DNA of 64,000 bases from a virus (IMGVR_UViG_3300013121_000049:16253-80252), one strand, 5' to 3'; positions 15,087 through 58,298 are shown, numbered from the stretch's first letter. Numbers and translations: made by a program. Notes: generated from the sequence alone by a model not told the origin.

Positions 15087-15311
15087 CTATTTTCTGTCGG
15101 GCCCCAGGTCCAGATATCTCTGGTGAAGCTGTGCATGCTCCAGGTGGTATTGCGCTTCGCTCAGATCCCCTCGTGCCAAAGCCTCTGCCGCACGACTCGT
15201 GTGATGCTTGACTATCTCTTCCGGAGACCGTTTTCCGAGTCGAAATGTGGCGCCAAGTTCGTTGGTCACCGCATTCGCCACCTTCTCCATTTCGCTCAAG
15301 TACACGTTCAT
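15087..15311 (-). CDS. Small protein with N-terminal signature (putative head-packaged)
   Basis: Begins MNVYLSEMEKVA. Confidence 0.65.
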   Translation of the reverse strand: MNVYLSEMEKVANAVTNELGATFRLGKRSPEEIVKHHTSRAAEALARGDLSEAQYHLEHAQLHQRYLDLGPDRK

Positions 15312-15312
15312 G

Positions 15313-15729
15313 TCACGTCCTCTCTCGTTGCGTCAGCTGCACGGTATCCGTCATGGTGAAGGTCTGCAGCACCTGACCGTTCACCCGGTAAAGCGTCAGC
15401 ACGCCGGTCTGCTTGTTCCACGACCAGCTGCCGATCGCCGCGTCCTCGATGTTCTGCAGAAAGCTGAGGTCGCTGCGTTCCTTCACCCAGACCGACGCCG
15501 CGATGGCGTTGTCGATGAAGAACGTGTAGAGGCCGGAGTCCGTGAACACCAGGCTCAGCGTGTACAGGCCGTTGCCGATTTCCGCCCAGGTCAGCGGAGA
15601 CTGCAGACTGGTGTAGACCACGCCGTCCTTGAGGATGGTCAGCGTGAAGTTGGTGCGACCCGAGTCGTTGTTGCGGGCCACGAAAGGCACGCTGAACGGC
15701 TGGTTGATGACGGTTTCGAGGCTTAACAT
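15313..15729 (-). CDS. Putative virion protein, Ig-like beta-sandwich
   Basis: Beta-rich (WAEIGNGLYTLSLVFTDSGLYTFFI); late block. Confidence 0.5.
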   Translation of the reverse strand: MLSLETVINQPFSVPFVARNNDSGRTNFTLTILKDGVVYTSLQSPLTWAEIGNGLYTLSLVFTDSGLYTFFIDNAIAASVWVKERSDLSFLQNIEDAAIGSWSWNKQTGVLTLYRVNGQVLQTFTMTDTVQLTQRERT

Positions 15730-15758
15730 ATTGGTCTCCGGTACCTAGCGGGGCAGTA

Positions 15759-16061
15759 TCAGGTCAACCCACCTATCACAGTATTAGCCAGGGAATCCCC
15801 TGAATGATGGCCGACCGTAGTCAGCCTTGAAGCCTCTCGCAAAATAGGGCTTTTCCCCAGATCTCCCAGCTTGCCGACATGCGGAACGGTCTTGGTCGAC
15901 AGCTTTGCAGCTCCCATACCAACGGCGTGCGCCACCCCGCCTGCACCGGCCATTCGCATCCCCGCTCCCGGAGTCGCCAGTTGCCCTGCAAGGTGAACGC
16001 CATGAGTCAGCAGCTCCATCAGAGCCGCCTGTTTCTCCATGGCCTTCAGGTAGGGGTTCAT
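15759..16061 (-). CDS. Gly/Ala-rich protein with N-terminal signature
   Basis: Begins MNPYLKAMEKQAA. Confidence 0.65.
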   Translation of the reverse strand: MNPYLKAMEKQAALMELLTHGVHLAGQLATPGAGMRMAGAGGVAHAVGMGAAKLSTKTVPHVGKLGDLGKSPILREASRLTTVGHHSGDSLANTVIGGLT

Positions 16062-16633
16062 GTGGCCTCCATCTCCAGGATATACAAACCCATGGCTTCC
16101 TTCAGCGCGTTCTCCTGGGAAACCGCCTCCGGAGTACTGGCGTCAGGGAATTCCGTGTCGGCGACGAACGGGAAAATCGGCCGGCGGATGCCTTCGTGAT
16201 GCAGGACGGTTTCGGCCAGCATGGCGACGGCGGTGTCCGGGTGGAATCCGATGGGCAAGTGGTGGAGGACGTACAGCGTGTAGGCCAACTCCAGGACGGT
16301 CGGCAGCACCAGGACATCCGGCTCATCGGCCTGATTGTTGATGACGTCGCAGGCCGCCAGGAACAACACCTGGTCTTCCTGGATGCGCGGGACTTCGGCC
16401 AGATCCATGACGCCGTTCGAGCTGTCGTCGGCGATACGCTCTTCGACCGGCCGGGCATCGGATAGCAAGCCCTTCAGGAGACGGATCTTCGCCAGCATGA
16501 GTGGTGTGAAAGCCACGCCCAGGTCCAGGGACAGCGTCTCGTCCTCCAGACGCCACCACTGCGGGCCGTGCACCGTCGTCAGCAGCTGGTTGAGCAGGAC
16601 CAGCGAGGTGCGGTCAGAGAGCGGGGCTGGCAT
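16058..16633 (-). CDS. Hypothetical late protein
   Basis: MPAPLSDRT... from ATG 16633; coupled overlap with the next gene. Confidence 0.65.
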   Translation of the reverse strand: MPAPLSDRTSLVLLNQLLTTVHGPQWWRLEDETLSLDLGVAFTPLMLAKIRLLKGLLSDARPVEERIADDSSNGVMDLAEVPRIQEDQVLFLAACDVINNQADEPDVLVLPTVLELAYTLYVLHHLPIGFHPDTAVAMLAETVLHHEGIRRPIFPFVADTEFPDASTPEAVSQENALKEAMGLYILEMEAT

Positions 16634-16638
16634 CGAAC

Positions 16639-17052
16639 TTACTCTCCGTACGCACGACGACTTGACCTGTTGGCCAAGTACCCCATGCCGCCTACTACAG
16701 CCGCTCCCCCCAACATGGAAGCCGCCGTGCGGGGCAGGCTCACGGGCGTCCTGTTCAACAGCGCCGGCATAACACCTCCGGCAAGCCCGCCCAAAGAGGC
16801 CCCAAGCATTGCAGAAGAAGAAACAGGAACACGTTGCTCGGGTCGAGGCGCCCTTGCCTTGAGGACAGCTAAAGTGGCTGGAACAGCAGCTGCTGACGCC
16901 AACCACGCAGGATGCCTCTCCCCCCCCATGTACAACAAGCCTCCGCTCATCGTACCCGCCAAAGCGCCAAGACCCACCAACTCTCCGGCCGTCATAGGCT
17001 TGCGCTCTTGCTCAAAGGCGACCTTAATCATGCCGCTCAAGTACGGATTCAT
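16639..17052 (-). CDS. Gly-zipper-like protein with N-terminal signature
   Basis: Begins MNPYLSGMIKVAF; several GxxxG hydrophobic segments. Confidence 0.65.
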   Translation of the reverse strand: MNPYLSGMIKVAFEQERKPMTAGELVGLGALAGTMSGGLLYMGGERHPAWLASAAAVPATLAVLKARAPRPEQRVPVSSSAMLGASLGGLAGGVMPALLNRTPVSLPRTAASMLGGAAVVGGMGYLANRSSRRAYGE

Positions 17053-17061
17053 GCGACCTCC

Positions 17062-17925
17062 TCACACCCGGCTGGCCAGCAGTTGTTGTTGCTCCAGCGG
17101 CAGACTCTCCACCACCGCCTTGAACTCCTGCGGGCCGCCGGCGCAGGCTTGGGCGACGTCATCGCCCAGCAAACGGTCGATCGGCAGGCGCATCAGGCTT
17201 TCCACAGGGACATTCCGACCGGCTACCTTGACCTGCAGCGCGCTGGCGGCAGCAGCCTTGGTGATGAACGCCTCGCCGTAGATGTCGAAGCCGCGGCGAT
17301 TGAGACCGGAGACCTCGTCCATCTCGCGGATGGTCGAGCAGATCTGGCGCACCTCGTCCTGATCGAAAGATGCCTTCTTGGTCATGGCCAAGGCGATCTC
17401 ACCGTAGCCCAGGCCGGGGGTTTCCCGCTCACGGCAGGCAATGTGAGCGATGGCCAGCACCGGGTCAAACTCGTCGCCGCCGCCCAGACGCCGCACGGCG
17501 GCAGACTTCACCATGTCGCCGTAGTTGTCCACCAGATGCTCGGCCGCCTTGATGATGGCATCGTGGTTGGGCATGAACTGCGCCAGGGCGCTCTCGATGG
17601 CGCGCTCAGAGTCAACGATCTGATCCTGTACGCTGGCGACCTTGTGAAAGCCTTGCGCCGCATGGAGCATGGACTCCGCAGCCTGCTTGATCTGCTCGCT
17701 GAGGCCATACAGGGCGGCTGCCGTGGATACGCGGTCATAGACGTCGCGGTCGACCGGGACGTGCGCGACCTTGAGCATGTGCTCCAGGCGCAGGGCGGAC
17801 AGCACGGTGTCAGCCGGCGTATCGATCGGGAAAGCGCCCTCGACGAGACGGGCTTCCTTGACCAGGGGGAGCACCTCCGGGACCAAGCCCAGCAGGTGAC
17901 GGATATCGTGGATGGAATCGATCAT
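17062..17925 (-). CDS. Putative head morphogenesis/core protein with eight K-x-A motifs
   Basis: KEA, KVA, KQA, KVA, KAA, KSA, KKA and KAA motifs in a helical protein. Confidence 0.55.
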   Translation of the reverse strand: MIDSIHDIRHLLGLVPEVLPLVKEARLVEGAFPIDTPADTVLSALRLEHMLKVAHVPVDRDVYDRVSTAAALYGLSEQIKQAAESMLHAAQGFHKVASVQDQIVDSERAIESALAQFMPNHDAIIKAAEHLVDNYGDMVKSAAVRRLGGGDEFDPVLAIAHIACRERETPGLGYGEIALAMTKKASFDQDEVRQICSTIREMDEVSGLNRRGFDIYGEAFITKAAAASALQVKVAGRNVPVESLMRLPIDRLLGDDVAQACAGGPQEFKAVVESLPLEQQQLLASRV

Positions 17926-17934
17926 GGCAACCTC

Positions 17935-18984: not shown

Positions 18985-19009
18985 GACGGTGCTCCGGGAA
19001 ACCTGCCCC

Positions 19010-22538: not shown

Positions 22539-23120
22539 ATGGTAACAGCGCTTCTTTTTTTCGCCGGATTAGGCGCCCTCATCCTATTTGCTTTCTTGTG
22601 CTTCGCTTTCCTGCAAGGAGCCGGGCCGCGCATCACCGCCGCCGCAAGCCGTCTTTTCCCTGATCCAGCGGCACTAAATGCTGCCCAGATCAACGACAAC
22701 CTTGCCAGCCAGGTATTTTTCACGTTGATGCAGGTCTACAAGCCTTGCGCCAAGGCCGGCTTCCGTCCGCTGACTGCGACGGAGATGAGCCTGCTGCAGA
22801 GAGCCTTCCAATACGACCTGAAGCGGCAGATGTTCCGCGAACGCTACACCCACCGCAAGGCAATGATGTCGAACTCCGAATTGCGGGAAGAAGCCGCGGC
22901 GTGCTTTGTCCGAGTAGTGTCTCCGCTTTTTCCGGATGCCGCCGTCACACGCCTGCTGGAGCATGCGAACGTCATCGTCCAGATGGAGAGCTACAGCGGC
23001 TCTACGCCGGAACTTCGTGAATGGACGATCGGCATGCCTATCGAGGCACCACAACCGTCCGCCGCTGACGGCGCGCCGCCCGCAGTATCGCTTTCAGGCC
23101 TTCCACTGAAATCTTCGTGA
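22539..23120 (+). CDS. N-terminally membrane-anchored hypothetical protein
   Basis: Hydrophobic N-terminus MVTALLFFAGLGALILFAFLCFAFL. Confidence 0.7.
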   Translation: MVTALLFFAGLGALILFAFLCFAFLQGAGPRITAAASRLFPDPAALNAAQINDNLASQVFFTLMQVYKPCAKAGFRPLTATEMSLLQRAFQYDLKRQMFRERYTHRKAMMSNSELREEAAACFVRVVSPLFPDAAVTRLLEHANVIVQMESYSGSTPELREWTIGMPIEAPQPSAADGAPPAVSLSGLPLKSS

Positions 23121-23553
23121 CCGGCCCCAGGAACCGCTTGTCGTCGTACTGCTTGAGGAACGCCCGGATGGCTTCGTCGCGCCGGCGGAAGCCCAGCATG
23201 ACCTTGTCTTCGTCCCACTTGCCCCAGTCGCCGGCCACCCGCTGGTGGACCACATAGGCAAACGGGGCTTTCTTGTCGGGACCGACGTAGACATCCAGGG
23301 CGTCGCCGTCGCGTCCCCGGGTCGCCTCGATGTAGCCATAGGGATGGTGCATCTTCACCTTCCAGCCCGGGCCTTCCCGCGTGCTGCCCTTGGGGTTCTC
23401 GATGGCGATCGGGATGCCCTGAAAGTCGACCCTCGGCTTGAAATAGTTCCCCGCGCGGATCTGGGCATCGGTCGGCTTCCGCCACACGCCGCGACCACCC
23501 AAGTCTTCGCGCAATTCCGCGAGCTTTCGCATCTCACACAGGAAATCGTTCAT
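23038..23553 (-). CDS. InPase (inorganic pyrophosphatase-like, polyvalent-protein family) domain protein
   Basis: AGNYFKPRVDFQGIPIAIENPKGSTR...MHHPYGYI...GRDGDALDVYVGP...DEDKVMLGF motifs. Start 23553 (MNDFLCEMRKLA). Confidence 0.82.
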   Translation of the reverse strand: MNDFLCEMRKLAELREDLGGRGVWRKPTDAQIRAGNYFKPRVDFQGIPIAIENPKGSTREGPGWKVKMHHPYGYIEATRGRDGDALDVYVGPDKKAPFAYVVHQRVAGDWGKWDEDKVMLGFRRRDEAIRAFLKQYDDKRFLGPVTKISVEGLKAILRAARRQRRTVVVPR

Positions 23554-43577: not shown

Positions 43578-44648
43578 ATGCGTCCCAACACCCACCCCGA
43601 GGTCGACGCCCTGCTGGCGGCAGGCGCTGCAGTTGCCGTGGGCGTCAGCGGCGGCAAGGACAGCCATGCCTGTGCGCTGGCCGTCGCCCGCCACCTGGAC
43701 CGCATCGGCCACGACGGCCCGCGCATCCTCATCCACGCCGATCTCGGCATGGTCGAGTGGAAGGATAGCCTGCCGTCCTGCGAGCGCCTGGCCGACCACA
43801 TCGGCTGGGAGCTTGTGGTCGTCCGTCGCCCGGCCGGCGGCATGATGGAGCGCTGGGAGAAGCGCTGGGCCAACAACGTCGACCGCTACCGGGCGCTGGA
43901 GTGCGTCAAGCTCATCCTGCCATGGTCGACGCCTGCCATGCGCTTCTGCACCAGCGAGCTCAAGGTCCAGGTCATATCCCCCTACCTGAGAAGGCGCTTT
44001 GCCGGCCGCGACGTCGTCAACGTCACCGGCATCCGCCGCCAGGAAAGCAGCAACCGGGCGAAGGCGCCGGTCGCCGTCGACAACCCGGCTGTCGTCAAGG
44101 CCGGCGGGCGAGGCATGACGTGGAACGCCATCATCGAGCACGACGTCGATCGTGTGTTCGAGTTCATCCGGGCCTGCGGCATGGACCTGCACGAAGGCTA
44201 CACCAAGTACGGCATGAGCCGGATATCCTGCGCGTTCTGCATCATGTCGAATGCCAAGGACCTCCTGCAGTCGACGACGTGCGCCGACAACCTGCCGGTC
44301 TACCAGCGCATGGTTGACCTGGAGGCAGCCAGCACCTTCGCCTTCCAGGGCAGTCAGTGGCTGGGCGATGTGGCGCCCTACCTGCTGGGCGCCGACCGCT
44401 GGAAGCGCTTGCAGGCCGCCAAGGAAGCCGCGGCGATCCGCACGATGTGGGAGAACCGGATCCCCCGGCATCTGCTGTACACCGCCGGCTGGCCGACGTG
44501 CATGCCTACGACCGCCGAAGCCGCGCTGATTGCCGACGTTCGCACCCGGGTTGCCCGGGTGGTTGGTCTGGACGGCGTTGGCTTCCTGACGGCAACCGAA
44601 GTCAGCCGGCGCTACGCCGAGCTGCTGGAGATGAAAAGTGAACGGTAG
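43578..44648 (+). CDS. PAPS reductase (phosphoadenosine phosphosulfate reductase)-family protein
   Basis: PP-loop VSGGKDS, IHADLG, RFCTSELK, GIRRQES, YGMSRISCAFCI. Confidence 0.85.
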   Translation: MRPNTHPEVDALLAAGAAVAVGVSGGKDSHACALAVARHLDRIGHDGPRILIHADLGMVEWKDSLPSCERLADHIGWELVVVRRPAGGMMERWEKRWANNVDRYRALECVKLILPWSTPAMRFCTSELKVQVISPYLRRRFAGRDVVNVTGIRRQESSNRAKAPVAVDNPAVVKAGGRGMTWNAIIEHDVDRVFEFIRACGMDLHEGYTKYGMSRISCAFCIMSNAKDLLQSTTCADNLPVYQRMVDLEAASTFAFQGSQWLGDVAPYLLGADRWKRLQAAKEAAAIRTMWENRIPRHLLYTAGWPTCMPTTAEAALIADVRTRVARVVGLDGVGFLTATEVSRRYAELLEMKSER

Positions 44649-44865
44649 AGTCGCCAAACGTATTCGCCGAATGCTGCGGGCGGAAGGCCGATTATCCCTT
44701 CCCTCTGAGTACCGCCGGGAGAAGAGGGGGTATGCAAAGAACCCCTATCATCGCCGGTATGACCGCCCTACCTATCGCCAGGCGTTGGCCTGGTGGTGGG
44801 AGTGCCAACCTTACCGGGCCAGCCTGTACTTCAGAAACCGGGGGAAGTATGTCGAGGGATTTTGA
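44638..44865 (+). CDS. Small basic hypothetical protein
   Basis: Coupled GTGA overlap. Confidence 0.5.
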   Translation: MNGRVAKRIRRMLRAEGRLSLPSEYRREKRGYAKNPYHRRYDRPTYRQALAWWWECQPYRASLYFRNRGKYVEGF

Positions 44866-45043
44866 GTACGTCCGCCGTGTCTACGGCGTCCCCGCGGAGA
44901 TGGGCCTCCGTGTCACCGTGGACAGCCATCCCGGAGTCATCGCAGCCGATCGCGGTCACTATATCGGCGTGCGGTTCGACCGAGATCCGCAGGTCGTCGT
45001 GAATTGTCATCCAACATGGGAGGTGGTCTATGGAACACGCTGA
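44849..45043 (+). CDS. Small phage protein (YxVPAxxGxRV family)
   Basis: MSRDFEYVRRVYGVPAEMGLRV...HPTWEVVY. Confidence 0.65.
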   Translation: MSRDFEYVRRVYGVPAEMGLRVTVDSHPGVIAADRGHYIGVRFDRDPQVVVNCHPTWEVVYGTR

Positions 45044-45338
45044 CTCAAGAGTGCCTTCCACCTCTTGGCTCATCGGCGGCGATGAACCCGTCACCCTGAC
45101 CGTCATCCGCTTGCCGGAGAACCGCATGCAGGTCGTCATGGTGACGTGGACCGATTGCTGGGCGCTCAACGGCCTCTACGAGGACGTCCACGTCTTGTTC
45201 CAGCGCAGCGCCACGGCGTATATCGCCAACCTGTTCTGCTGCCGCCTGCGGGTGAAGCCTTCCCCATCCCACCTGCGTCGACTGCACAAGGCAGTCAACG
45301 CCGTCAAAGAATGGAGTCAACAACATGAAACCAGCTGA
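45030..45338 (+). CDS. Hypothetical protein
   Basis: GGAGG RBS. Confidence 0.6.
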   Translation: MEHADSRVPSTSWLIGGDEPVTLTVIRLPENRMQVVMVTWTDCWALNGLYEDVHVLFQRSATAYIANLFCCRLRVKPSPSHLRRLHKAVNAVKEWSQQHETS

Positions 45339-45795
45339 TTTCGTCGACGCCGTCGTCGTCAAGCTCAAGGCTTTGGGCAAGCTCATCCTCAACGGGCTGG
45401 AATTCATCGGCACCGACTTCACTGTCCGCATCCGCCGGGAGTCCATCACCATGATCAAGGATGGCCAGGAGACCTACCGCATCGCCGCCGACAACTCGAT
45501 CAACGGTGTCCCCTTCCCCGCGCTGACTATCGTCGTTCACGGCGACGTCAAGACGATGCGCTCCCTGGCGGGGTCCGTCTCTGTGAATGGATCGGTGGGG
45601 TCCGTTGAATCGGCCGGCGGCGACGTCTACTGCCACGCGGTCACCGGGAACGTCGAGTCCACGCAGGGGGGTATTACCTGCGGCGACGTAGCCGGCGACG
45701 TCACGACAATGCAGGGGGATGTCTCCTGCGTGTCTGTGAAGGGATCGGTATCCACTCAAATGGGCGACATCACTATCGGAGGTCGAAAGACATGA
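45325..45795 (+). CDS. Beta-solenoid (DUF4097/adhesin-like repeat) protein
   Basis: Repeats G[SD]V..V.S..G[DS]V (GSVSVNGSVGSVESAGGDVYCHAVTGNVESTQGG). Confidence 0.65.
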   Translation: MKPADFVDAVVVKLKALGKLILNGLEFIGTDFTVRIRRESITMIKDGQETYRIAADNSINGVPFPALTIVVHGDVKTMRSLAGSVSVNGSVGSVESAGGDVYCHAVTGNVESTQGGITCGDVAGDVTTMQGDVSCVSVKGSVSTQMGDITIGGRKT

Positions 45796-45971
45796 GATTC
45801 CTGTTCTTTTTCACCCTGTGGTGCACATTTCTCTGGGGGCTTGCCTGGTATGTCCACGAGGGCTTCCAGATGATCTGGGCGTACAACGGCGCCCTGGCGG
45901 TGCTGGCCGCACCCGTTCTCATCTGCTACGGAAGCTGGGTTTCCCGGCAAAAATGGGGAGGCGACTCATGA
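45792..45971 (+). CDS. Small two-TM membrane protein (59 aa, not in the ORF track)
   Basis: MRFLFFFTLWCTFLWGLAW...; ATGA coupling at both ends. Confidence 0.65.
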   Translation: MRFLFFFTLWCTFLWGLAWYVHEGFQMIWAYNGALAVLAAPVLICYGSWVSRQKWGGDS

Positions 45972-46291
45972 TCTGCCAAGACTGCCGCCAGCACATCGCC
46001 ATGCTGGAGACCGCCGAGATCACCGCGGAAGGCGTCCGCCACATCTACCGCTGCAAGTCCTGCCAGTCGGATTGGCGGGTGGACAACCCGGATGTCGTCG
46101 CCCAGGTCGAACCTATCGAGCCCGGCCTGATGTTCGCCAGCCTGCTGGTGGACCACTACGATGGCCTGCTTACCCCGATCATGGCCAGCGAAGCCATGAC
46201 CCTCTCCCGGACCTACGTGAGGGCCACCCGCGATGCGCACACTGCCGTTCGACGTCTGCCGCTGCTCCGCGGTGAATTGCCCCGTACGTGA
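45968..46291 (+). CDS. Zn-finger hypothetical protein
   Basis: CQDC...CKSC. Confidence 0.6.
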   Translation: MICQDCRQHIAMLETAEITAEGVRHIYRCKSCQSDWRVDNPDVVAQVEPIEPGLMFASLLVDHYDGLLTPIMASEAMTLSRTYVRATRDAHTAVRRLPLLRGELPRT

Positions 46292-46433
46292 CCACTGCCT
46301 GCGCTACGTCCAGCGCGACGTGCGCGGCCCGCGTACTCCCATCAACGACTTCTCCGGGCTGCCCGGCCTGGAGATCATTCAGCCGGCTGACTGCAACCAA
46401 TTCGAGGATATCCATGGACAATCTCATCGATGA
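46233..46433 (+). CDS. Small Cys-rich phage protein
   Basis: DVCRC...CPVRDHCLRY. Confidence 0.55.
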   Translation: MRTLPFDVCRCSAVNCPVRDHCLRYVQRDVRGPRTPINDFSGLPGLEIIQPADCNQFEDIHGQSHR

Positions 46434-46731
46434 CCTCCGCGCCTACGCTGACCGCCTCGATGCGGAAGCCCAGACCATGGACGGCGTGGGTTTGGACGCC
46501 CCGTTGCGTGCGGAGGCCGACCTCGTGCGCCGCGCCATTCAGGCCATCGAGACCCTCAGCAACTCCCATTTTGAACGGGGCTTCGTGCGCGCCCCCAATC
46601 ACGTCGATGTCTTGAAGTCCAATCACTTCAGGCAGGCCATGGCTGACCTTACGTCACGCCGGGCCTACACCAAGGGGGAGTGCGCCATGTTGATCGCGGA
46701 GGCCCGGTATGCCCTGCACAATGAAGGATGA
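46414..46731 (+). CDS. Hypothetical protein
   Basis: GAGG RBS; MDNLIDDLRAY. Confidence 0.65.
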   Translation: MDNLIDDLRAYADRLDAEAQTMDGVGLDAPLRAEADLVRRAIQAIETLSNSHFERGFVRAPNHVDVLKSNHFRQAMADLTSRRAYTKGECAMLIAEARYALHNEG

Positions 46732-47329
46732 CGCTGTCCGCCGGGGACGATTCGCCGCCTATGCCAAGAAGAAGGGCCGGGACCCGGAGCAGCTCTTCCG
46801 GGAGATGGCGCAAACCATGACGGACGAGCAGATCGGCGACGCGGCGTGCATCTCCTCCTCCTGGGCGCAAAAGCTGCGCTGGAAGCTGGGAATTCGCCGC
46901 GCCGATACTGCGCTGTCCCGCAACGCGCTGATATCCGAAGCGGCGCAGCGTCAGATTCCCCTGCGGAAGTTCCTGGTCGACCTGGCCAAGAAGCACGGCA
47001 GCGGCCGGGATATTTGCAAGGTCAAGCACATCGACGTCTCCGTGCTGCTCTACGCCCAGCGCAAGGCCAACGTCTGCCTGGATCCGCGCTGGTACATTCA
47101 GGGAGAAGACGGCTTCTGGCTGGAGCCGCGCCACGTCTTGCCCGGCCTGCGCGCCGCCGGCCTGAAGCTCCCCACCCACGCGGCCATCGCCGGTCGCGCC
47201 CACTGGCGGAAGATTTCCCTGGCCCAAATGGTGGCGGTCCTCGCCGCCGAGCAGGGGGTGGAGCTGACAGTCGCCCCGGGGATAGGCCTCGATCTGGACA
47301 AGGTCGGTCACCGCCGATCCTTGGTATAA
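46721..47329 (+). CDS. Putative HTH DNA-binding protein
   Basis: MTDEQIGDAACISSSWAQKLRWKLGI HTH-like motif. Confidence 0.55.
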   Translation: MKDDAVRRGRFAAYAKKKGRDPEQLFREMAQTMTDEQIGDAACISSSWAQKLRWKLGIRRADTALSRNALISEAAQRQIPLRKFLVDLAKKHGSGRDICKVKHIDVSVLLYAQRKANVCLDPRWYIQGEDGFWLEPRHVLPGLRAAGLKLPTHAAIAGRAHWRKISLAQMVAVLAAEQGVELTVAPGIGLDLDKVGHRRSLV

Positions 47330-47330
47330 G
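47323..47330 (+). promoter_or_regulatory. GGTATAAG promoter motif (extended -10, TG-G-TATAAG)
   Basis: Overlaps the upstream stop codon. Confidence 0.7.
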
Positions 47331-47378
47331 CACTATGCCGGCGCCATGCCCGGTCACAACACATCAGGGGAAATACCC

Positions 47379-47471
47379 ATGGATAGAATCCATATCGGTC
47401 ACTTCATCGCCGCCATGAAAATCGTGGCGGTCTTCTTCGTCCGCTGGCTGACGCCGAAGCTCTGGAGCTGA
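47379..47471 (+). CDS. 30-aa hydrophobic peptide (not in the ORF track)
   Basis: MDRIHIGHFIAAMKIVAVFFVRWLTPKLWS; AGGGG RBS; bracketed by a promoter and a terminator. Confidence 0.6.
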   Translation: MDRIHIGHFIAAMKIVAVFFVRWLTPKLWS

Positions 47472-47486
47472 CCGACCCCTCGTTTC

Positions 47487-47506
47487 GGCCCGTTCGCGGG
47501 CCTTTT
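47487..47506 (+). terminator. Rho-independent terminator
   Basis: GGCCCG-TTCG-CGGGCC-TTTT. Confidence 0.75.
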
Positions 47507-47530
47507 CAGCAGGATAAGCACCCCGGAGTT

Positions 47531-47559
47531 TCAACAAAATCCGGGCCGATTGGTATAAG
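47531..47559 (+). promoter_or_regulatory. Promoter TCAA-N13-GATTGGTATAAG
   Basis: Fourth copy of the extended architecture. Confidence 0.8.
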
Positions 47560-47621
47560 GAACGTACAGGAGACGAGATAACTCGTATTCCTATTTCCCA
47601 CCAGAAAAGGTATTGAACACC

Positions 47622-48308
47622 ATGAACACTCAATCCAATGCTGTGCCGGCCACCGTCGACAACGTCATCGCCTTCCCGGGCGAGAAGAAACCCACCTTCC
47701 TGGGTGTCGAGCAAGACACCTGGTACGGCGCCGGCAAGTTGGCCGGGGCGGCGGCCGTGGGGGCGGGCGCCCTCTACGGCTACCAATGGCTGACCTCGCC
47801 CAGCGAGGACGATGAGGCCGCTGCGGCCGCGGCCGCCAAGGCGGAATTCGACCGCCTCCATGCGGCGATCAAGGAGAGCGGTGACTCGCTCTCCACGCAG
47901 ATCGGTGGCTTGGCGAGCCGCCTCGACGCCATGGACGGCCGGGTGGCCAAGGTGGAGGGGGCCGTTGGCAACCTCCACCACCGCATCCAGGCGCTGGAGG
48001 CGGCCAAGCCGGCCGCCCCGGCGTTTGACGTCGGGCAGCTGATGGAGGCGCTGGAGGCGGCCAAGCCGGCCGCCCCGGCGTTTGACGTCGGGCAGCTGAT
48101 GGAGGCGCTGCCGGCCACCGTCGCCGGCATCGCGGCGGCGGTGCAGAACGCGGTCCAGCCGCTGGCCGCCGCGCCGGTGGCTGAAGCGCCCACCGCCGCG
48201 CCGGTGGCTGAGACCCCGACCCCGGCCGCTCCGGTCGCCGCTGCCCCGGCGGTGGAAACCCTCCACCGTCCGCAACCCGCGGCTGTCAAGCCGCAGGGCA
48301 AGCGCTGA
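47622..48308 (+). CDS. Membrane-anchored coiled-coil protein with 19-aa duplication and Ala/Pro tail
   Basis: Hydrophobic GAAAVGAGALYGYQWL; repeat EAAKPAAPAFDVGQLMEAL twice. Confidence 0.75.
   Translation: MNTQSNAVPATVDNVIAFPGEKKPTFLGVEQDTWYGAGKLAGAAAVGAGALYGYQWLTSPSEDDEAAAAAAAKAEFDRLHAAIKESGDSLSTQIGGLASRLDAMDGRVAKVEGAVGNLHHRIQALEAAKPAAPAFDVGQLMEALEAAKPAAPAFDVGQLMEALPATVAGIAAAVQNAVQPLAAAPVAEAPTAAPVAETPTPAAPVAAAPAVETLHRPQPAAVKPQGKR
47989..48110 (+). repeat. Exact 57-bp tandem duplication
   Basis: Units start at 47990 and 48047. Confidence 0.9.
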
Positions 48309-48345
48309 CTCCAACGCCGCCCGCTGCCGGGCGGCACAACCCCAC

Positions 48346-48369
48346 AAGCCCGGCAACGGGCTTTTCTTT
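48346..48369 (+). terminator. Terminator at the convergence of the early and late blocks
   Basis: AAGCCCG-GCAA-CGGGCTT-TTCTTT. Confidence 0.8.
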
Positions 48370-54096: not shown

Positions 54097-54771
54097 CTAT
54101 TGGGTATCAACGGTCATCAGGAACTCCCTGACGACTGGTCCAAGGTTCTTGGCCTGCCATTTCATTTCCAGTGAATACGGCATTTGCATGTCGATGATCC
54201 ACTTGGTGCGGTCGTCCTTGTCCCGGATGGGACGAGAGACTTGCAGGCCGCCCAGTTGCTGAAACCCCTGGGAATTGCAGAGGTAGGGCCTCGTGCAAAA
54301 CAGGAAATGGGCAACCAGTCTGCCGAGAAGCTCCGCGGTGCCGAAGTTCCAGGTAATGATCCTGAAGTTCGCCATGCCGTTGGCCATCGCCATGTGCATC
54401 GTCGCCGCTATCTGGTGACTGGGGCTCATGGCGTAGTCCGCCGCTGAGTTGTCCATTCCCATGGGCTGGACCCCGTAGTCCCCGCGATCCACCAGGATGA
54501 TCGGCCGTGCGCCAGGCGGCATGTCGGGTTCCTGATCGTCGCGGACACGAATGTCCAGCCGGGTCTGCTCCGGGTCTTCGCTGTATTTTACGTGATCCGG
54601 TGCGGCGGTACGAAACAAATATCGGAGGACGTCCACGAACAGCGGGGCGATGGACGACGGGTTGAAGGACGTGAAGAACTTCAGTTCGGACGCCACGGGG
54701 TCCGGTGTCGCCAGCATGGGGCCGCGCCCGCCGTCCTCCAGGGTAACCGGAGTCAAGTGCTCGGTCGTCAT
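54097..54771 (-). CDS. Putative tail terminator/completion protein
   Basis: Position between the neck genes and the sheath; beta-rich. Confidence 0.5.
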   Translation of the reverse strand: MTTEHLTPVTLEDGGRGPMLATPDPVASELKFFTSFNPSSIAPLFVDVLRYLFRTAAPDHVKYSEDPEQTRLDIRVRDDQEPDMPPGARPIILVDRGDYGVQPMGMDNSAADYAMSPSHQIAATMHMAMANGMANFRIITWNFGTAELLGRLVAHFLFCTRPYLCNSQGFQQLGGLQVSRPIRDKDDRTKWIIDMQMPYSLEMKWQAKNLGPVVREFLMTVDTQ

Positions 54772-55676
54772 CAGACGCCCTCCCGGTTGAGGAGCAGGTA
54801 TTCCACCGCAGTCGGCGGCAGTTGGATGATCTGCAGGTTCTGCTTGACGGGCACCGTGCGCATCAGGGTGGAGCTGAGGTTGTCTACCCGGTACACCCGG
54901 CGCTCGGGAATATGCACCAGCAGATCATTGGGGTCGATCTTCGGATAGGCGATCGTCCAGGCCATGCGCGCGGCGTTTTCCCACCGGCCTTCCTCCATGG
55001 GGTAGTCCGTGGACTGGAAGTCGGAGTAGTTCACGTACGTCCGGATACCGTTGTAGTACCCCATTTCATAGGACGTGCCAAAACACACCGGGCAGTGATC
55101 GTCCGTAACCATGCGTCGCGTGGGGTCCCAGCAGCGCGAGCAGCGGTACCCGTACTTACCGGGCTGCACCCGTTTCAGGATCATGCTGGGCACGCCGTTG
55201 AACCGGCTGAGGATGATCCACTCCCGGCGGTTGATCTCCTGCTTGCGGCGGAAGTGCCAGGGGCTGAGCTCGTTCTCGTGGGTGATCGGCGCGGAGAAGC
55301 CGATGGAGACGTCCCCCAGCCAGACCTGGACCAGGTACCAGTCCGAGTAGTACTTGCTGGCCAGCTTGAAGGACGGATCGGTGTACTGGTTCCCCGCAAC
55401 CGGCTGTTGGGTCAGCTTGATGAACGGGCCCTCGGGAGACTCTCCCCGCCAGATATCGTAGACAGGACTTACCCAGGAAGGGTCCGGTTCCCAGACGAGA
55501 TGCGCGGAGTCGAACCACTGGGGGTGCAGGACGCCCGTGAACTTCGGGATGGTCATCCGGTTGACGGGCAGGCGGACCTTGTTGCCGACGTGCGGCTGGA
55601 TGATCTCGACCGGAAGATTCTGGTACTTCCCGGGGAGGTAGCTGAAGTGCAGCGTATCGAGGGTGCCGCCGAACAT
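54771..55676 (-). CDS. Putative neck/head-closure protein (FN3-like N-terminus, Zn ribbon)
   Basis: HLVWEP...YDIWRGESPEGPF; CSRC...CPVCFGT. Confidence 0.55.
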   Translation of the reverse strand: MFGGTLDTLHFSYLPGKYQNLPVEIIQPHVGNKVRLPVNRMTIPKFTGVLHPQWFDSAHLVWEPDPSWVSPVYDIWRGESPEGPFIKLTQQPVAGNQYTDPSFKLASKYYSDWYLVQVWLGDVSIGFSAPITHENELSPWHFRRKQEINRREWIILSRFNGVPSMILKRVQPGKYGYRCSRCWDPTRRMVTDDHCPVCFGTSYEMGYYNGIRTYVNYSDFQSTDYPMEEGRWENAARMAWTIAYPKIDPNDLLVHIPERRVYRVDNLSSTLMRTVPVKQNLQIIQLPPTAVEYLLLNREGV

Positions 55677-55685
55677 GGCGCCTCC

Positions 55686-56126
55686 TTACCAGACCGGGAA
55701 ATTCCGGTAATCTGACCCGATATCCCCCCATCCGCTCTGAATGTTCAGCTGGACCTTGATCTGGCGAGCCAGGTCGGATCCCATGGATCCGAACTGACGG
55801 GCAATTGCAGTGAACATCTCGAAGCGCTCCTCGATGGGGATCGTGGTGCCGCCATCAGAGTAGCTCATCTGGTTGCGCGCCGCCATGGCCGCCTGCCCTT
55901 CATAGAGCGACTGGGCGACCAGGTAGAGCATGGCCTTGGAGTACGCGGTCGGAAAGCTCTCGACGGTGTAGGTGGTGATCGGCTGGATGGAGTTCAGGGA
56001 AGACACCGCCAGGGTCATGGCCAGATAGATGCGTTCGTCAGAGAACTCCACGCCGTCCAGCAGCATGTTGTTTTCCGGGCTGTCGTTGAGGAACAGCCTG
56101 ACCATTTCAGGCGTGAGCTGTGCCAT
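55686..56126 (-). CDS. Putative head-tail adaptor (gp15/gp6-like)
   Basis: VRLFLND...SDE.I..A...SYSDGG helical pattern; neck position. Confidence 0.6.
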   Translation of the reverse strand: MAQLTPEMVRLFLNDSPENNMLLDGVEFSDERIYLAMTLAVSSLNSIQPITTYTVESFPTAYSKAMLYLVAQSLYEGQAAMAARNQMSYSDGGTTIPIEERFEMFTAIARQFGSMGSDLARQIKVQLNIQSGWGDIGSDYRNFPVW

Positions 56127-56514
56127 ACACCACCCCTGTATGAGATGCGTTGCTTGCCTTGAGTTCCATCAGCTTGGGCAGCAGTGATTTGCGAATGGTA
56201 ACGTCTTTCTCCACCCCGATGACGCCGACGACATGCCTATCTTCGTCGAGGACCGGCGTGCAGCACAGGCGCACCCACCGGCCGTCCACACACAGGTCCA
56301 TGGGGAACGCCGAGGTCATGTCAACGTGCCGCCAGCTCTCCAGGCTCTTCTCGACGAATTCCCAGTCGCTGTCCACGGTCAACTGCGCCCTCCAGTCTTC
56401 CAGAGTCAGGCCCTTGTTGTGCCAGAAGGTGCCGTCTCGAAGGTCGTACACCCACAGGTCTTCGTCGACCAGGGCTGCCGCTGCCTTCAGAGTGTCGAGG
56501 TTGATAATGCACAT
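56107..56514 (-). CDS. Stand-alone PAS/PAC domain protein
   Basis: LWVYDLRDG start; PAC motif WVRLCCTPVLDEDRHVVGVIGVEKDVTIRK; GAGGT RBS. Confidence 0.75.
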   Translation of the reverse strand: MCIINLDTLKAAAALVDEDLWVYDLRDGTFWHNKGLTLEDWRAQLTVDSDWEFVEKSLESWRHVDMTSAFPMDLCVDGRWVRLCCTPVLDEDRHVVGVIGVEKDVTIRKSLLPKLMELKASNASHTGVVYGTAHA

Positions 56515-56524
56515 GGAGAGGACC

Positions 56525-57727
56525 TCACTGGTTTCCCTGCGGGTGACCGGCAAGAGCATGATGGGCCATAGCGAGGCCTCCGACAACCAAGGCTCCCTTG
56601 GCCGCAAGGCCTGCCCCGGTGGTCCAGCGGTACAGTTTCTGCATTTTTGCCGAGTCCTCAACCGCAGCAGTCGACATGCCCTTTCCTTTCATGTACTCGA
56701 TCTTTTTGTCTGTCGACATGTTTTTCATGGCGTCAAGATGTGCCTTAGCAGCGGCCTCATCCCCTTCGGAGTGCCTCCACACCGTATGCTCGATCGTCCC
56801 CTTCAGATGATCTCCTGTCAAAGGCGAGAAGGGGTTGCTGCTCAGTATTTCGCTGGGGTGCCGAGGAGGTTCCCCTGCAGCCTTGCACATGCTATGCAGA
56901 TACGGATTCACCGCCGCCTGCTTCTGCTGGCTGCCGCCACTGCCCAGGAACGCCGCGCCGGCAACAGTGCCGCCGCCAGCACCGACCGCTGTGGCGATGC
57001 GGGCAGTCTTCTGCGCCCGGACTGCATTTTCATAGCCGGAGGTGTCATGCACGCCCAAGGTCTCCTTGAGATACTTGACCTTGCCCTCGTGGTCATCAAT
57101 CTTCCCGAGTTCCTTGATGTGCCGGTCGACGTCTTCCGGACCATTAACCCGAGGAGCCGACGCAACGGTCTTCTTCAGCGTTGCCTCAGTGTGTTGACCG
57201 GACAGGTGCCCCCAGTAGCCATCAGTGTCCTTGGGCTTGTTCTCTTTTGGTGCCTCCGTCTTCGGCGTTTCCGCAGCAGGGGCCTCCGTCTTCGGCGCTT
57301 CCGCAGCAGGGGCCTCCGTCTTCGGCGCTTCCGCAGCAGGGGCCTCCGTCTTCGGCGCTTCCGCAGCAGGGGCCTCCGTCTTCGGAGCTTCCGCAGCAGG
57401 GGCCTCCGTCTTCGGAGCTTCCGCAGCAGGGGCCTCCGTCTTCGGAGCTTCCGCAGCGGGTGCCGCAGGCTTCTGGTAGTGCTTTGTCATTTCGGCATGC
57501 ACGTCTCCCAAATGCTCATCCCGTATACCCTGGCCTTTCAACGTCTTGACCAAAGAGTCGGGGCTCCCAGTCTTGGCATGGTACCTGGCCATCGACTTTA
57601 CTTGGATTTTTGCACTCTCGCTCAAACCGGATTTTGCGGCGGCGTGGCCGGCCTTTTCCACAATAGCTTCAACGGCCTCTGACGGTAATCCAGCCAGTTT
57701 TTCCATGTAAAGAATAAACGGATTCAT
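56525..57727 (-). CDS. Ala-rich putative internal head protein; two signature-headed modules plus a PAEK repeat linker
   Basis: MNPFILYMEKLAG; internal VNPYLHSMCKAAG; (AAEAPKTEAP)x7. Confidence 0.7.
   Translation of the reverse strand: MNPFILYMEKLAGLPSEAVEAIVEKAGHAAAKSGLSESAKIQVKSMARYHAKTGSPDSLVKTLKGQGIRDEHLGDVHAEMTKHYQKPAAPAAEAPKTEAPAAEAPKTEAPAAEAPKTEAPAAEAPKTEAPAAEAPKTEAPAAEAPKTEAPAAETPKTEAPKENKPKDTDGYWGHLSGQHTEATLKKTVASAPRVNGPEDVDRHIKELGKIDDHEGKVKYLKETLGVHDTSGYENAVRAQKTARIATAVGAGGGTVAGAAFLGSGGSQQKQAAVNPYLHSMCKAAGEPPRHPSEILSSNPFSPLTGDHLKGTIEHTVWRHSEGDEAAAKAHLDAMKNMSTDKKIEYMKGKGMSTAAVEDSAKMQKLYRWTTGAGLAAKGALVVGGLAMAHHALAGHPQGNQ
57251..57460 (-). repeat. 30-bp VNTR, seven units
   Basis: Units at 57252, 57282, 57312, 57342, 57372, 57402 and 57432. 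Confidence 0.92.
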
Positions 57728-57740
57728 ACAGACCTCGTTG

Positions 57741-58298
57741 TTAGTACTGACCTTGGTTACGCTGCCCGGATACGTGAGACATGACTGCTGCTCCTGCCGC
57801 CGCGCCCGTCACGGCCCGCGTCGCAGCCCGACTTCCCATGGCATTCTTGATGGACTTCACGGCTTCGGGGCCAAGGTTATCCTGCGTGAACTTCAGCTTC
57901 TTCTCGTCAGAGAGTCCGCTGAGCTGTTGCTCGAAGGCAAACCGTTGGGCCGGCGTAGAGAACTTGCCCGCCATCTCGGCATGCCGCATGATTTCCCGAT
58001 TGACGTTGGAGCCGAACAAAGCCTGAGCGTAGTTCACCGGAGCCCGGACCAACCCGCGCGCGGTGTTGTACCCTGCGTTGACCACGGAACCGACGATGCC
58101 GGGGCCTTCTTTCTTTGCAGCGCCCGCCACAGCCTCGGCCGCCTCTGCCGCTGCAGCCGACTGCTTGTACATAGGCAACGTCGCCGCTTCCCGAGGAGCA
58201 CCGATCTTGGCGCGCTCCAGAAGGTCTTGAACCAGGAGGCGAGGCTTTGGCAGGAGGCCAGCCTCCTTCATCATGGCTTCCAGGTACGGATTGCTCAT
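57741..58298 (-). CDS. Ala-rich putative internal head protein with N-terminal signature
   Basis: MSNPYLEAMMKEAG; C-terminal half resembles the modules of the 56525 protein. Confidence 0.7.
   Translation of the reverse strand: MSNPYLEAMMKEAGLLPKPRLLVQDLLERAKIGAPREAATLPMYKQSAAAAEAAEAVAGAAKKEGPGIVGSVVNAGYNTARGLVRAPVNYAQALFGSNVNREIMRHAEMAGKFSTPAQRFAFEQQLSGLSDEKKLKFTQDNLGPEAVKSIKNAMGSRAATRAVTGAAAGAAVMSHVSGQRNQGQY

What the first reader, a model, noticed from the sequence alone, without database searches (positions are those of the whole stretch)
15087..58298. A shared 11-residue N-terminal 'address label' on six dissimilar proteins: candidate capsid-targeting/cleavage signal
Seen: N-x-[YF]-[LI]-x-x-M-x-K-x-A starts the proteins at 15311 (MNVYLSEMEKVA), 16061 (MNPYLKAMEKQA), 17052 (MNPYLSGMIKVA), 23553 (MNDFLCEMRKLA), 57727 (MNPFILYMEKLA) and 58298 (MSNPYLEAMMKEA). 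It recurs internally in the 56525-57727 protein (VNPYLHSMCKAA). Spacing is identical in all seven, while most downstream sequences are unrelated. Known: T4 internal proteins carry a 10-aa N-terminal capsid targeting sequence that the prohead protease removes. Inference: this is an analogous but different signal that routes cargo into the prohead and is cut at K-x-A. It would form a modular protein-packaging and injection system, potentially usable to load foreign proteins.
Basis: partly seen in the sequence, partly recalled or inferred. Interest (0 to 1): 0.88.

Follow-up and report, generated by a model that had tools for sequence, protein, structure and literature searches.

The report
Lysine-type capsid-loading leader on phage proteins
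Nine otherwise different proteins of this uncultured 144-kb phage start with the same 11-residue peptide, whose second half matches the likely cutting site of the phage's head-maturation protease, so it most probably works like phage T4's "load into the head, then cut off" signal but with a new sequence.

Summary
N-x-[YF]-[LI]-x-x-M-x-K-x-A occurs 8 times in six-frame translation of the genome (0.0006 expected), and a ninth variant heads an SNF2 helicase. Seven copies directly follow a start codon. The two internal ones (in E, and a relic in H) sit at junctions of genes that are separate and tagged in a relative.

The tag has two parts. M-x-K-x-A is one case of a general site, hydrophobic-x-K-x-A. 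That site is 5-14 times enriched in head-module proteins here and in an IMG/VR relative, Salmonella phage Arash and Vibrio phage D69. It is fixed near the capsid protein's N-terminus and brackets the catalytic domain of the prohead protease I identified (63451-64938; Z 11 to T4 gp21). A docking model puts Lys at P3. N-x-[YF]-L is specific to N-terminal sites.

A shorter relative, M-(S/T)-N-x-Y-L-E-K-I-A, heads 80 ORFs in 21 of 80 other head modules with this protease. Arash's homologue of the tagged helicase is abundant in virions.

Cleavage at K-x-A is well supported comparatively. Capsid targeting and injection remain inference, since there is no virion data for this phage. The scan met the same lysine-type leader on other DNA (e1-5358273, e1-5435130). 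I rate it a new variant of the T4 CTS principle.

The parts
15087..15311 (-). Tagged protein A, 74 aa; the tag is residues 2-12 (nt 15308-15276)
   Evidence: ATG with an upstream GAGAGAGG ribosome-binding site, and a motif score of 23.8. It lies between homologues of the Arash virion proteins gp245/gp243.
15759..16061 (-). Tagged protein B, 100 aa, Gly/Ala-rich; the tag is nt 16058-16026
   Evidence: B resembles H residues 486-532 and the N-terminus of the tagged G001 ORF 68633-70018.
16639..17052 (-). Tagged protein C, 137 aa, with four Gly/Ala-rich hydrophobic segments; the tag is nt 17049-17017
   Evidence: In relative G001 the ORF at the same position starts MNPFFDEMTKLAS.
23038..23553 (-). 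Tagged protein D, 171 aa: tag plus linker (residues 1-23), then an InPase domain
   Evidence: Pfam PF18823 InPase, E 2.8e-39, residues 29-157. PHROG matches fall inside minor head, virion and DarB-like proteins. The G001 orthologue is 66% identical and lacks the tag.
56525..57727 (-). Tagged protein E, 400 aa: N-terminal tag (nt 57724-57692) and a second tag at residue 274 (nt 56908-56876, preceded by GTG)
   Evidence: E residues 274-388 align to a separate tagged gene in the relative (L008 17437-17859), and the front part aligns to L008 16241-17428. E is therefore a fusion of two tagged genes.
57741..58298 (-). Tagged protein F, 185 aa; the tag is nt 58292-58260
   Evidence: The orthologue in the relative (41% identity) keeps a diverged tag, MNRYHDEMTKLA.
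63451..64000 (-). Prohead protease fused to a scaffold-like tail, 495 aa. The gene runs on to 64938, beyond the window end. Predicted catalytic residues are H100, E125 and S151.
   Evidence: 3444 relatives. phrog_18299 'head maturation protease' is hit by 39 of 41 family members. AF2 model pLDDT is 79.6. VIA Z is 11.0 to T4 gp21 (rmsd 2.9 A, 130 aa) and 10.2-10.9 to herpesvirus assemblins, with unrelated rows at 6 or below. An invariant L-x-K-x-A lies before the core and V-L-x-K-V-A-S after it.
60380..61414 (-). Major capsid protein, 344 aa, with one site MTKQA|E at residues 29-33 (nt 61330-61316)
   Evidence: 46% identical to the Arash MCP gp226. The site is conserved in position in L008 (MTKAA|E), Arash (LVKEA|G) and D69 (LTKEA|G).
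62275..63433 (-). Two scaffold-like proteins (62780-63433 and 62275-62823), each with 5 h-x-K-x-A sites
   Evidence: 5 sites against 0.26-0.36 expected from shuffles. The homologues in L008, Arash gp223/gp225 and D69 are equally site-dense.
17062..17925 (-). Site-dense head protein, 287 aa, 7 sites; homologue of the Arash virion protein gp242
   Evidence: 7 sites against 0.52 expected. Arash gp242 has 8 against 1.1 and was detected in virions (PMC10585845 Table 2).
59609..60343 (-). Untagged Gly/Ala-rich neighbour with an N-proximal generic site (LMKMA|A, residues 11-15)
   Evidence: It lies directly downstream of the MCP with 58305-59501, F and E, in the slot where Arash encodes the virion proteins gp227-gp232.

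Best explanation
The 11-residue peptide is an N-terminal propeptide with two parts. The first part (N-x-[YF]-[LI]-x-x) is an N-capped amphipathic-helix element found only at protein N-termini. I infer that it brings the protein into the assembling prohead core. The second part (M-x-K-x-A) is a site for the phage's own prohead protease (63451-64938), which has the T4 gp21 / herpes assemblin fold and is fused to a scaffold-like tail. The protease is predicted to cut after the Ala, with Lys at P3 and a hydrophobic residue at P5.

The same site occurs many times in the scaffold-like head proteins, once near the capsid protein's N-terminus, and on both sides of the protease domain. Maturation would therefore dismantle the core, trim the capsid protein, free the protease, and cut the leader off the cargo. 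The cargo comprises small Gly/Ala-rich proteins that are probably membrane-active, an InPase enzyme and an SNF2 helicase.

What is shown: the motif statistics, the protease fold and the conservation of the sites. What is inferred: actual cleavage, capsid loading and ejection into the host.
For: 1. There are 9 copies against 0.0006 expected, and 7 follow a start codon directly. The two internal ones are fusion junctions of genes that are separate and tagged in relative G001.

2. The relative G001 has 8 tagged ORFs, all N-terminal.

3. [LIVMF]-x-K-x-A is 5-14 times over shuffle expectation in head-module proteins here. The same holds for their homologues in L008, Arash (gp220: 9 vs 0.8; gp223: 8 vs 0.8; gp242: 8 vs 1.1) and D69. 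The MCP site is conserved in position in all four phages.

4. The protease is identified by PHROG and by fold. 87 of 94 representatives have a site just before the catalytic core, and 86 of 94 have one just after it.

5. Docking of protease residues 25-235 with the first 40 aa of tagged protein G gave a score of 0.69 against 0.00 for the best of 3 controls. That mark was reached by 58 of 80 solved complexes and 2 of 110 mismatched pairs; these counts hold only roughly because my own alignments were used. The runs agree in at least 5% of contacts, and partner pLDDT is at least 36. A Lys sits in a pocket of invariant N74/D76/D159/N196, and the residue three positions later sits beside invariant S151/H100/E125. 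This gives K = P3.

6. Internal sites lack the N-x-Y-L half. In 80 other head modules, N-x-[YF] at P8-P6 accompanies 23% of N-terminal sites against 1.1% of internal ones.

7. A short form, N-x-[YF]-[LIVM]-x-K-x-A, occurs 98 times in those loci (controls 3-8), and 80 copies follow a start codon directly. One heads an SNF2 helicase.

8. Arash Gp217, the homologue of tagged helicase H, gave 38 peptides and 1148 spectra in virions. Gp242/243/244 and Gp220-225 are also virion proteins (PMC10585845).

9. InPase domains of this type are held to be virion-packaged (PMC5512222).

10. In the T4 CTS the N-terminal residues target and residues 8 and 10 direct processing (PMC9026906).
Against: There are no virion proteomics or N-terminal data for this phage or any phage carrying the long tag, so cleavage and packaging are both unobserved.

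The docking model bound a Lys in an extended stretch of the partner (residues 28-39, PLKVQGG), not the tag itself. One of three runs scored only 0.20. Solved herpes protease-peptide complexes may have helped the model.

Arash packages its helicase without such a tag. G001's InPase orthologue has none. The tag is therefore not required for those proteins everywhere.

G lies behind a GGTATAAG promoter of the plus-strand (early/middle) class, and D is a lone antisense gene in the early island. Only 7 of 9 tags are in structural operons.

The distant mycobacteriophage branch of the protease family lacks the K-x-A bracket.

The Arash 'virion' list is generous, at 116 of 252 proteins.
Confidence: 0.6

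Rival explanations
1. Processing-only propeptide. The whole 11-mer is just an extended recognition element for the protease, or a pro-sequence that keeps membrane-active or enzymatic proteins inert until maturation. The proteins reach the prohead by other means.
For: The K-x-A half is the best supported part. Arash and D69 virion proteins carry only minimal M-x-K-x-A starts (MPKSAS on the RNAP beta subunit, MEKQAS, MDKVAK) without an N-x-Y-L half. Arash's helicase is packaged untagged.
Against: N-x-[YF] is conserved upstream of N-terminal sites but almost never upstream of internal ones (23% against 1.1%). This would be odd if it only served the protease's subsites. The protease acts inside the prohead, so its substrates must be there anyway.
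Confidence: 0.2
2. Docking motif that is not cut. Hydrophobic-x-K-x-A is a short binding motif for the inner capsid surface, portal or scaffold. It is repeated for multivalent attachment, and the tag stays on the mature protein.
For: The repeat density in scaffold-like proteins and the N-terminal position fit a binding motif as well as a cut site. The site-dense proteins Gp220-225 and Gp242 are still detected in Arash virions.
Against: The sites bracket the protease domain in about 90% of family members, as self-release sites do in herpes assemblin and T4 gp21. Sites also sit at the fusion junctions in E and H. The docked Lys lies in the active-site cleft next to the invariant Ser/His/Glu. Fragments of cut core proteins remaining in heads are normal in T4 and phiKZ-like phages (PMC10052503).
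Confidence: 0.1
3. Family leftover or another function. The peptide is an inherited N-terminus of one expanding family of small Gly/Ala-rich proteins, or a signal for membrane insertion, turnover or a host factor, with no relation to the capsid.
For: Many tagged and untagged neighbours share Gly/Ala-rich hydrophobic segments. E1/E2 and B/H-middle are paralogous. G and D are outside the late operons. Internal NPY[LF]-D-x-M-x-K-x-A also occurs in unrelated phage families.
Against: The tag also heads an InPase and an SNF2 helicase that share nothing else with each other. It is gained or lost on orthologues. It is co-oriented with, and adjacent to, the protease and capsid genes in 91 of 96 cases in other phages. 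Its second half equals the head-protein site.
Confidence: 0.07

Closest known systems
Phage T4 capsid targeting sequence (CTS) of IPI/IPII/IPIII and Alt, removed by prohead protease gp21 (PMC9026906; Mullaney and Black 1996 as cited there)
   Same: Both are roughly 10-residue N-terminal leaders on unrelated proteins. Both have a two-part logic, with an N-terminal part for targeting and a C-terminal part that is the protease site. The protease has the same fold (Z 11.0 to gp21). The same site recurs in core or scaffold proteins, in the capsid protein and in the protease itself.
   Different: There is no sequence similarity (T4: MKTYQEFIAE, cut after L/I-x-E). Here the site is hydrophobic-x-K-x-A, with Lys in place of Glu and a predicted cut after Ala. 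The lineage is Arash-like with a virion RNA polymerase, not T4-like. Nothing has been shown experimentally.
Propeptides of phiKZ-like and SPN3US head and ejection proteins, cut by gp175/gp245 after A-x-E (PMC10052503)
   Same: A morphogenetic protease trims many head-internal proteins at a short consensus. Propeptides carry multiple sites.
   Different: The motif is different. In those phages the propeptides are mostly long (111-254 aa) and are not a shared short leader.
Herpesvirus assemblin (pUL26-type protease-scaffold fusion) with release and maturation sites cut between Ala and Ser (my own knowledge; fold matches)
   Same: The protease sits at the N-terminus of a scaffold-like polypeptide. 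A conserved site lies immediately after the catalytic domain (…V-L-x-K-V-A|S). Ala is at P1 and Ser, Ala or Glu at P1'.
   Different: The register differs: K is at P3 and the hydrophobic residue at P5, against V/L at P3 in herpesviruses. This protease also has an invariant Cys3-His insert. It is a phage protein.
MuF- or portal-fused polyvalent proteins carrying InPase domains (PMC5512222)
   Same: Protein D has the same InPase clade (PF18823). Those authors consider it virion-packaged and injected.
   Different: D is a stand-alone InPase. Its only appendage is the 23-residue leader region, with no MuF or portal domain.
Encapsulin cargo-loading peptides (my own knowledge)
   Same: A short terminal peptide directs unrelated cargo into an HK97-fold shell.
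   Different: Those peptides are usually C-terminal, are not cleaved and have a different sequence. Membership was not tested.
Earlier finding of this scan on other DNA: e1-5358273, 'Lysine-type capsid-loading leader'
   Same: An N-terminal leader ending in hydrophobic-x-Lys-x-Ala on unrelated proteins of an uncultured phage of about 180 kb with this kind of protease.
   Different: It is in another genome and describes a leader of about 20 residues. It is an AI note, not a publication.

Membership tests
T4-type capsid targeting / propeptide system | One short N-terminal peptide shared by proteins that are otherwise unrelated | tested here: met
   There are 9 copies. A, C, D (InPase), F, G and H (SNF2 helicase) are unrelated beyond the tag, while E1/E2 and B/H-middle are related.
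T4-type capsid targeting / propeptide system | The peptide ends in the consensus site of the phage's prohead protease, and that site also occurs in core, capsid and protease proteins | tested here: met
   The site consensus is inferred rather than measured. The evidence is its enrichment in four phages, the conserved MCP site, and its bracketing of the protease domain in 87 and 86 of 94 representatives.
T4-type capsid targeting / propeptide system | Sequence likeness to the T4 CTS and an L/I-x-E site | tested here: not met
   The tag is N-x-[YF]-[LI]-x-x-M-x-K-x-A, with no Glu at the site. It works like a CTS but is not a homologue of it.
T4-type capsid targeting / propeptide system | Tagged proteins are inside the capsid, the leader is removed, and the leader suffices to load a foreign protein | not testable with these tools
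   There is only indirect support: the Arash homologue of H and neighbouring head proteins are in virions (PMC10585845).
Prohead protease of the gp21 / assemblin / HK97 fold | Fold match to solved proteases over the catalytic domain | tested here: met
   Z is 11.0 to 5jbl_A (rmsd 2.9 A, 130 aa) and 10.9 to 1vzv (rmsd 2.6 A, 114 aa). Unrelated rows score 6 or below.
Prohead protease of the gp21 / assemblin / HK97 fold | Invariant Ser and His in the cleft | tested here: met
   H100, E125 and S151 are invariant in 41 sequences. All three contact the docked peptide.
Prohead protease of the gp21 / assemblin / HK97 fold | Match to curated family models | tested here: inconclusive
   PF03420 and PF04586 find nothing in the genome. 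One of 41 relatives hits PF04586 at E 9e-4. phrog_18299 'head maturation protease' is hit by 39 of 41, best E 8e-15.
Herpes-type protease-scaffold fusion with a release site | A scaffold-like helical tail after the protease, and a conserved Ala-Ser type site right after the domain | tested here: met
   The model is helical over residues 276-495. T-S-S-V-L-x-K-V-A-S lies within 25 aa after the core in 86 of 94 representatives. Cleavage itself is not shown.
Polyvalent / MuF-linked packaged InPase proteins | An InPase domain of the phage clade | tested here: met
   PF18823, E 2.8e-39.
Polyvalent / MuF-linked packaged InPase proteins | Fusion to MuF, portal or other effector domains | tested here: not met
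   D is 171 aa, consisting of the leader plus InPase only.

The most novel reading that the evidence does not exclude
The N-x-[YF]-L…K-x-A leader is a sufficient, portable capsid-loading signal. It is read by a receptor in the prohead core that is distinct from the protease's subsites. It is shared, in short and long forms, by a very large group of mostly uncultured phages that carry this protease subfamily. If so, a simple leader scan would read out each phage's injected protein arsenal (SNF2 helicase, InPase and many orphan proteins). The leader and protease pair would also be a second loading system, orthogonal to T4's.
Probability: 0.4. Interest if true: 0.78.

Novelty: new variant of a known kind. 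Interest (0 to 1): 0.64.

Why it matters
It gives a concrete, testable cleavage rule: hydrophobic-x-K-x-A, cut after Ala. The rule applies to a prohead protease subfamily of the gp21/assemblin fold. The whole family has thousands of members (3444 representatives), is annotated 'hypothetical' or 'structural protein' even in cultured phages, and has no described specificity.

It also gives a leader that flags which proteins these phages probably carry in the head and deliver to the host. That is the class of proteins in which anti-defence and host-takeover functions are usually found.

Two cultured relatives (Arash and Vibrio phage D69) make the rule checkable with existing methods.

Tried and rejected
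**Protease candidates and model searches**
- My first protease candidate, 66744-67478, was rejected. It has language-model features of HTH or small-terminase type and only two homologues.
- Pfam and PHROG searches on most head-module proteins found nothing.
- PDB sequence searches with the protease and with its profile found nothing.
- Foldseek alone gave only weak E-values. The VIA re-scoring was needed.

**Searches for relatives**
- The search for related loci with the MCP in metagenome contigs found no relatives.
- The same tool with 17062-17925 and with H in viral contigs found none, because the exact 8-mer patterns were too strict.

**Motif scans elsewhere**
- A strict back-translated tag with ATG gave 1 IMG/VR hit, probably chance.
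- Without ATG it gave 42 hits, about my rough estimate for chance. They fall in unrelated families with internal copies: P27-type small terminases and phrog_4287 'DNA ejection protein'. Those loci show no protease of this family. No conclusion was drawn.
- The long tag is absent from Arash and from the 80 other head-module loci.
- The K-x-A bracket is absent in the mycobacteriophage branch, so the rule is not universal for the superfamily.

**Other checks**
- The Arash paper's supplement holds only the feature table and no peptide-level data.
- Literature searches found no description of a K-x-A specificity or of this leader.
- A DNA- or RNA-level explanation for the shared start was rejected, because synonymous positions vary.

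Full report
**Observation.** The window belongs to a complete 144,252-bp IMG/VR virus record with terminal repeats and about 62% GC.

A six-frame scan of the whole genome with N-x-[YF]-[LI]-x-x-M-x-K-x-A finds 8 matches. Residue frequencies predict 0.0006, and 200 shuffles gave a mean of 0.005. A small profile finds 9 clear copies (20-27 bits), after which the score falls to 5.

The two extra copies lie outside the window. G is a 70-aa ORF at window 72012(+). H is a 958-aa protein at window -5533(-) that starts VVNPFTLAMEKVA and continues straight into an SNF2 helicase. The copies have ribosome-binding sites and differ at synonymous positions, so the peptide is what is conserved.

**The internal copies are former N-termini.** An IMG/VR relative (G001, 95.5 kb, 66% complete, MCP 77% identical) carries the signature on eight ORFs, always at the N-terminus.
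- E residues 274-388 align to a separate tagged gene of the relative, and the front of E aligns to the tagged gene before it. E's internal copy is preceded by GTG.
- The C-terminal half of H corresponds to a separate G001 gene that starts MNPYLENMRQMQKSAS. The junction in H keeps two sites (…GMMKQA MDKRA…).

Every copy is therefore N-terminal or sits at a fusion seam.

**What the tagged proteins are.**
- D is an InPase (PF18823, E 2.8e-39). Its PHROG matches fall inside minor head, virion and DarB-like proteins. This clade of InPase domains has been argued to be virion-packaged (PMC5512222).
- H is an SNF2 helicase with a Gly/Ala-rich C-terminus.
- A, B, C, E, F and G have no family. Most of them, and their untagged neighbours, have Gly/Ala-rich hydrophobic segments.
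- Beyond the tag, only E1/E2 and B/H-middle are related.

The nearest cultured phage is Salmonella phage Arash (TerL 48% identical). Synteny places E and F directly downstream of the major capsid protein, where Arash encodes the virion proteins gp227-232. It places A, B and C among homologues of the virion proteins gp242/243/245.

In the Arash virion proteome, Gp217 (the homologue of H's helicase part) gave 38 unique peptides and 1148 spectra. That is similar to the RNA polymerase beta-prime subunit (PMC10585845).

**The second half of the tag is a general head-protein site.** [LIVMF]-x-K-x-A is 5-14 times more frequent than in shuffles in a handful of proteins:
- 17062-17925 has 7 sites
- 62275-62823 has 5
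- 62780-63433 has 5
- 65523-66707 has 7
- 67475-69472 has 4
- 63451-64938 has 4

There is also one site at residues 29-33 of the capsid protein.

The homologous proteins of the relative, of Arash (53% GC) and of Vibrio phage D69 show the same enrichment. The capsid-protein site is fixed in position in all four phages. Residues after the Ala are mostly Ser, Ala, Glu or Gly. The internal sites share nothing upstream of P5 except a preference for Gly at P6.

**The protease.** The 495-aa protein at 63451-64938 (Arash gp222) has 3444 relatives among 1.84 billion cluster representatives.
- 39 of 41 aligned members hit phrog_18299 'head maturation protease'.
- The AlphaFold model (pLDDT 79.6) has a beta-rich domain at residues 50-225 and a helical tail.
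- It matches T4 gp21 with Z 11.0 (rmsd 2.9 A, 130 residues) and herpesvirus assemblins with Z 10.2-10.9. Unrelated proteins stay at 6 or below.
- H100, E125 and S151 are invariant, as is a Cys3-His insert.

Most telling, an L-x-K-x-A lies just before the catalytic core in 87 of 94 representatives, and T-S-S-V-L-x-K-V-A-S lies just after it in 86 of 94. The exceptions keep K-x-A-[S/N/T]. This is the arrangement of self-release sites in herpes assemblin and of the propeptides of T4 gp21.

Known phage specificities differ: L/I-x-E in T4 and A-x-E in SPN3US (PMC9026906, PMC10052503). The distant mycobacteriophage branch, where the domain heads a 1369-aa protein, lacks the bracket. The rule therefore belongs to the Arash-like subfamily.

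**Docking.** I docked protease residues 25-235 with the first 40 residues of tagged protein G, each supplied as an alignment. The score was 0.69, and the best of 3 controls scored 0.00. That mark was reached by 58 of 80 solved complexes and 2 of 110 mismatched pairs; these counts hold only roughly because my own alignments were used. The runs agree in at least 5% of contacts, partner pLDDT is at least 36, and one of three runs scored 0.20.

The model did not place the tag in the cleft. It placed a later extended stretch (P-L-K-V-Q-G-G). Its Lys lies in a pocket of invariant N74, D76, D159 and N196, and the residue three positions later lies beside S151, H100 and E125. This supports a Lys-binding S3 pocket and the register K-x-A|, but it does not show that the tag is cut. 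Solved herpes protease-peptide complexes may have guided the model.

**The first half is specific to N-termini and is widespread.** I fetched 80 head-module loci around protease relatives from IMG/VR (33-51% identity).
- 12.5% of 1,983 ORFs there have a site starting in their first 10 residues, against roughly 0.9-2.7% for permuted or substituted motifs.
- Many of these ORFs begin M-(S/T)-N-x-Y-L-E-K-I-A.
- This short form, N-x-[YF]-[LIVM]-x-K-x-A, occurs 98 times, against 3-8 for controls. 80 copies directly follow a start codon, in 21 loci with up to 7 per locus. 91 of 96 are co-oriented with the protease.
- In the short form the Leu of Y-L is itself P5. The focal clade's long form has one extra helical turn, and it occurs in none of the 80 loci.
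- Without requiring N or Y in the search, N-x-[YF] at P8-P6 accompanies 23% of N-terminal sites but only 1.1% of internal ones. The odds ratio is 28, though the ORFs are not phylogenetically independent.
- One short-tag protein is again an SNF2 helicase, whose start aligns with H.

Arash and D69 show only minimal starts: MPK[S/K]AS on the virion RNA polymerase beta subunit, and MEKQAS and MDKVAK on small Gly/Ala-rich proteins.

**Caveats.**
- No virion or N-terminal data exist for any carrier of the long or short tag.
- Arash packages its helicase untagged, and G001's InPase orthologue has no tag. The tag is modular and dispensable for some proteins in some phages.
- G sits 39 nt behind a GGTATAAG promoter. 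That element is almost exclusive to plus-strand, non-structural units (25 of 26 copies). D is a lone antisense gene in that island.
- The exact long pattern also occurs internally in unrelated phage families: P27-type small terminases and phrog_4287 'DNA ejection proteins'. The total number of hits is about what I estimate for chance. I draw no conclusion from it.

**Verdict.** The best explanation is a two-part N-terminal propeptide. It has a leader element restricted to N-termini, followed by a cut site for a gp21/assemblin-fold protease with a new, lysine-centred specificity.

The cut-site reading is well supported by comparative evidence. Capsid loading is plausible but indirect, and injection is untested. 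In kind this is the T4 CTS principle in a different lineage with a different sequence. The scan has met the same lysine-type leader and bracketed protease on other genomes (e1-5358273, e1-5435130). I found no publication describing it.

Noticed in passing
outside the window: window coordinates -4712..-3453 and -5539..-4709, minus strand (genome 11541-12799 and 10713-11543): Two paralogous genes lie just upstream of helicase H (419 and 276 aa). They start with minimal sites (MNEMTKQA, MIKYA) and contain HTHPF / HIHP motifs. Both end in tag-like peptides (ENPYADAMAKAEA, ENPYAKAMETEA). This could be a C-terminal version of the leader without an intact cut site.
   Followed up: partly
window about 57230-57470, minus strand (inside protein E): There are about seven tandem copies of a 10-residue unit (APKTEAPAAE) between E's N-terminal leader and its second half.
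   Followed up: no
IMG/VR loci L022, L023, L025, L035, L044, L055 and others: Members of phrog_4287 ('DNA ejection protein') in unrelated phages all conserve an internal NPY[LF]-D-x-M-x-K-x-A. P27-type small terminases (phrog_83) conserve NPYLxxMNKQA. It is unclear whether this is chance or a shared role.
   Followed up: partly
window 71973 (+), and genome-wide: GGTATAAG occurs 25 times on the plus strand and once on the minus strand. Tagged gene G sits 39 nt behind one copy, with a TTGACG 17 nt upstream of the motif. TAAAAT[AG]G precedes three minus-strand structural operons (window 78619, 87539, 97104) and may be a late promoter.
   Followed up: partly
window 63451-64938, minus strand (protease residues 161-177): C161, C164, C175 and H177 are invariant and form a zinc-ribbon-like insert right after the catalytic Ser. 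This is unusual for prohead proteases.
   Followed up: no
window 12064-12684, minus strand: The ORF overlapping the end of the large terminase gene probably starts at its Met22. That would give a protein beginning MTKPAS, a minimal K-x-A start like those of Arash and D69.
   Followed up: no
Arash OQ632216.1 172528-172995, minus strand: An unannotated 155-aa ORF starts MMEKVAS.
   Followed up: no
L062 (Mycobacterium phage ScottMcG gp94, record 44239-48348): This 1369-aa protein carries a 'tape measure' note, but it has the prohead protease domain at its N-terminus, directly upstream of the major head protein. It looks like a giant protease-scaffold fusion and has no K-x-A bracket.
   Followed up: partly
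window 66744-67478, minus strand (L010 4997-5731): This head-module gene has language-model features of HTH or small-terminase type, and its Arash counterpart (gp219) is not in the virion list. It may be the small terminase or a DNA-binding assembly factor.
   Followed up: partly
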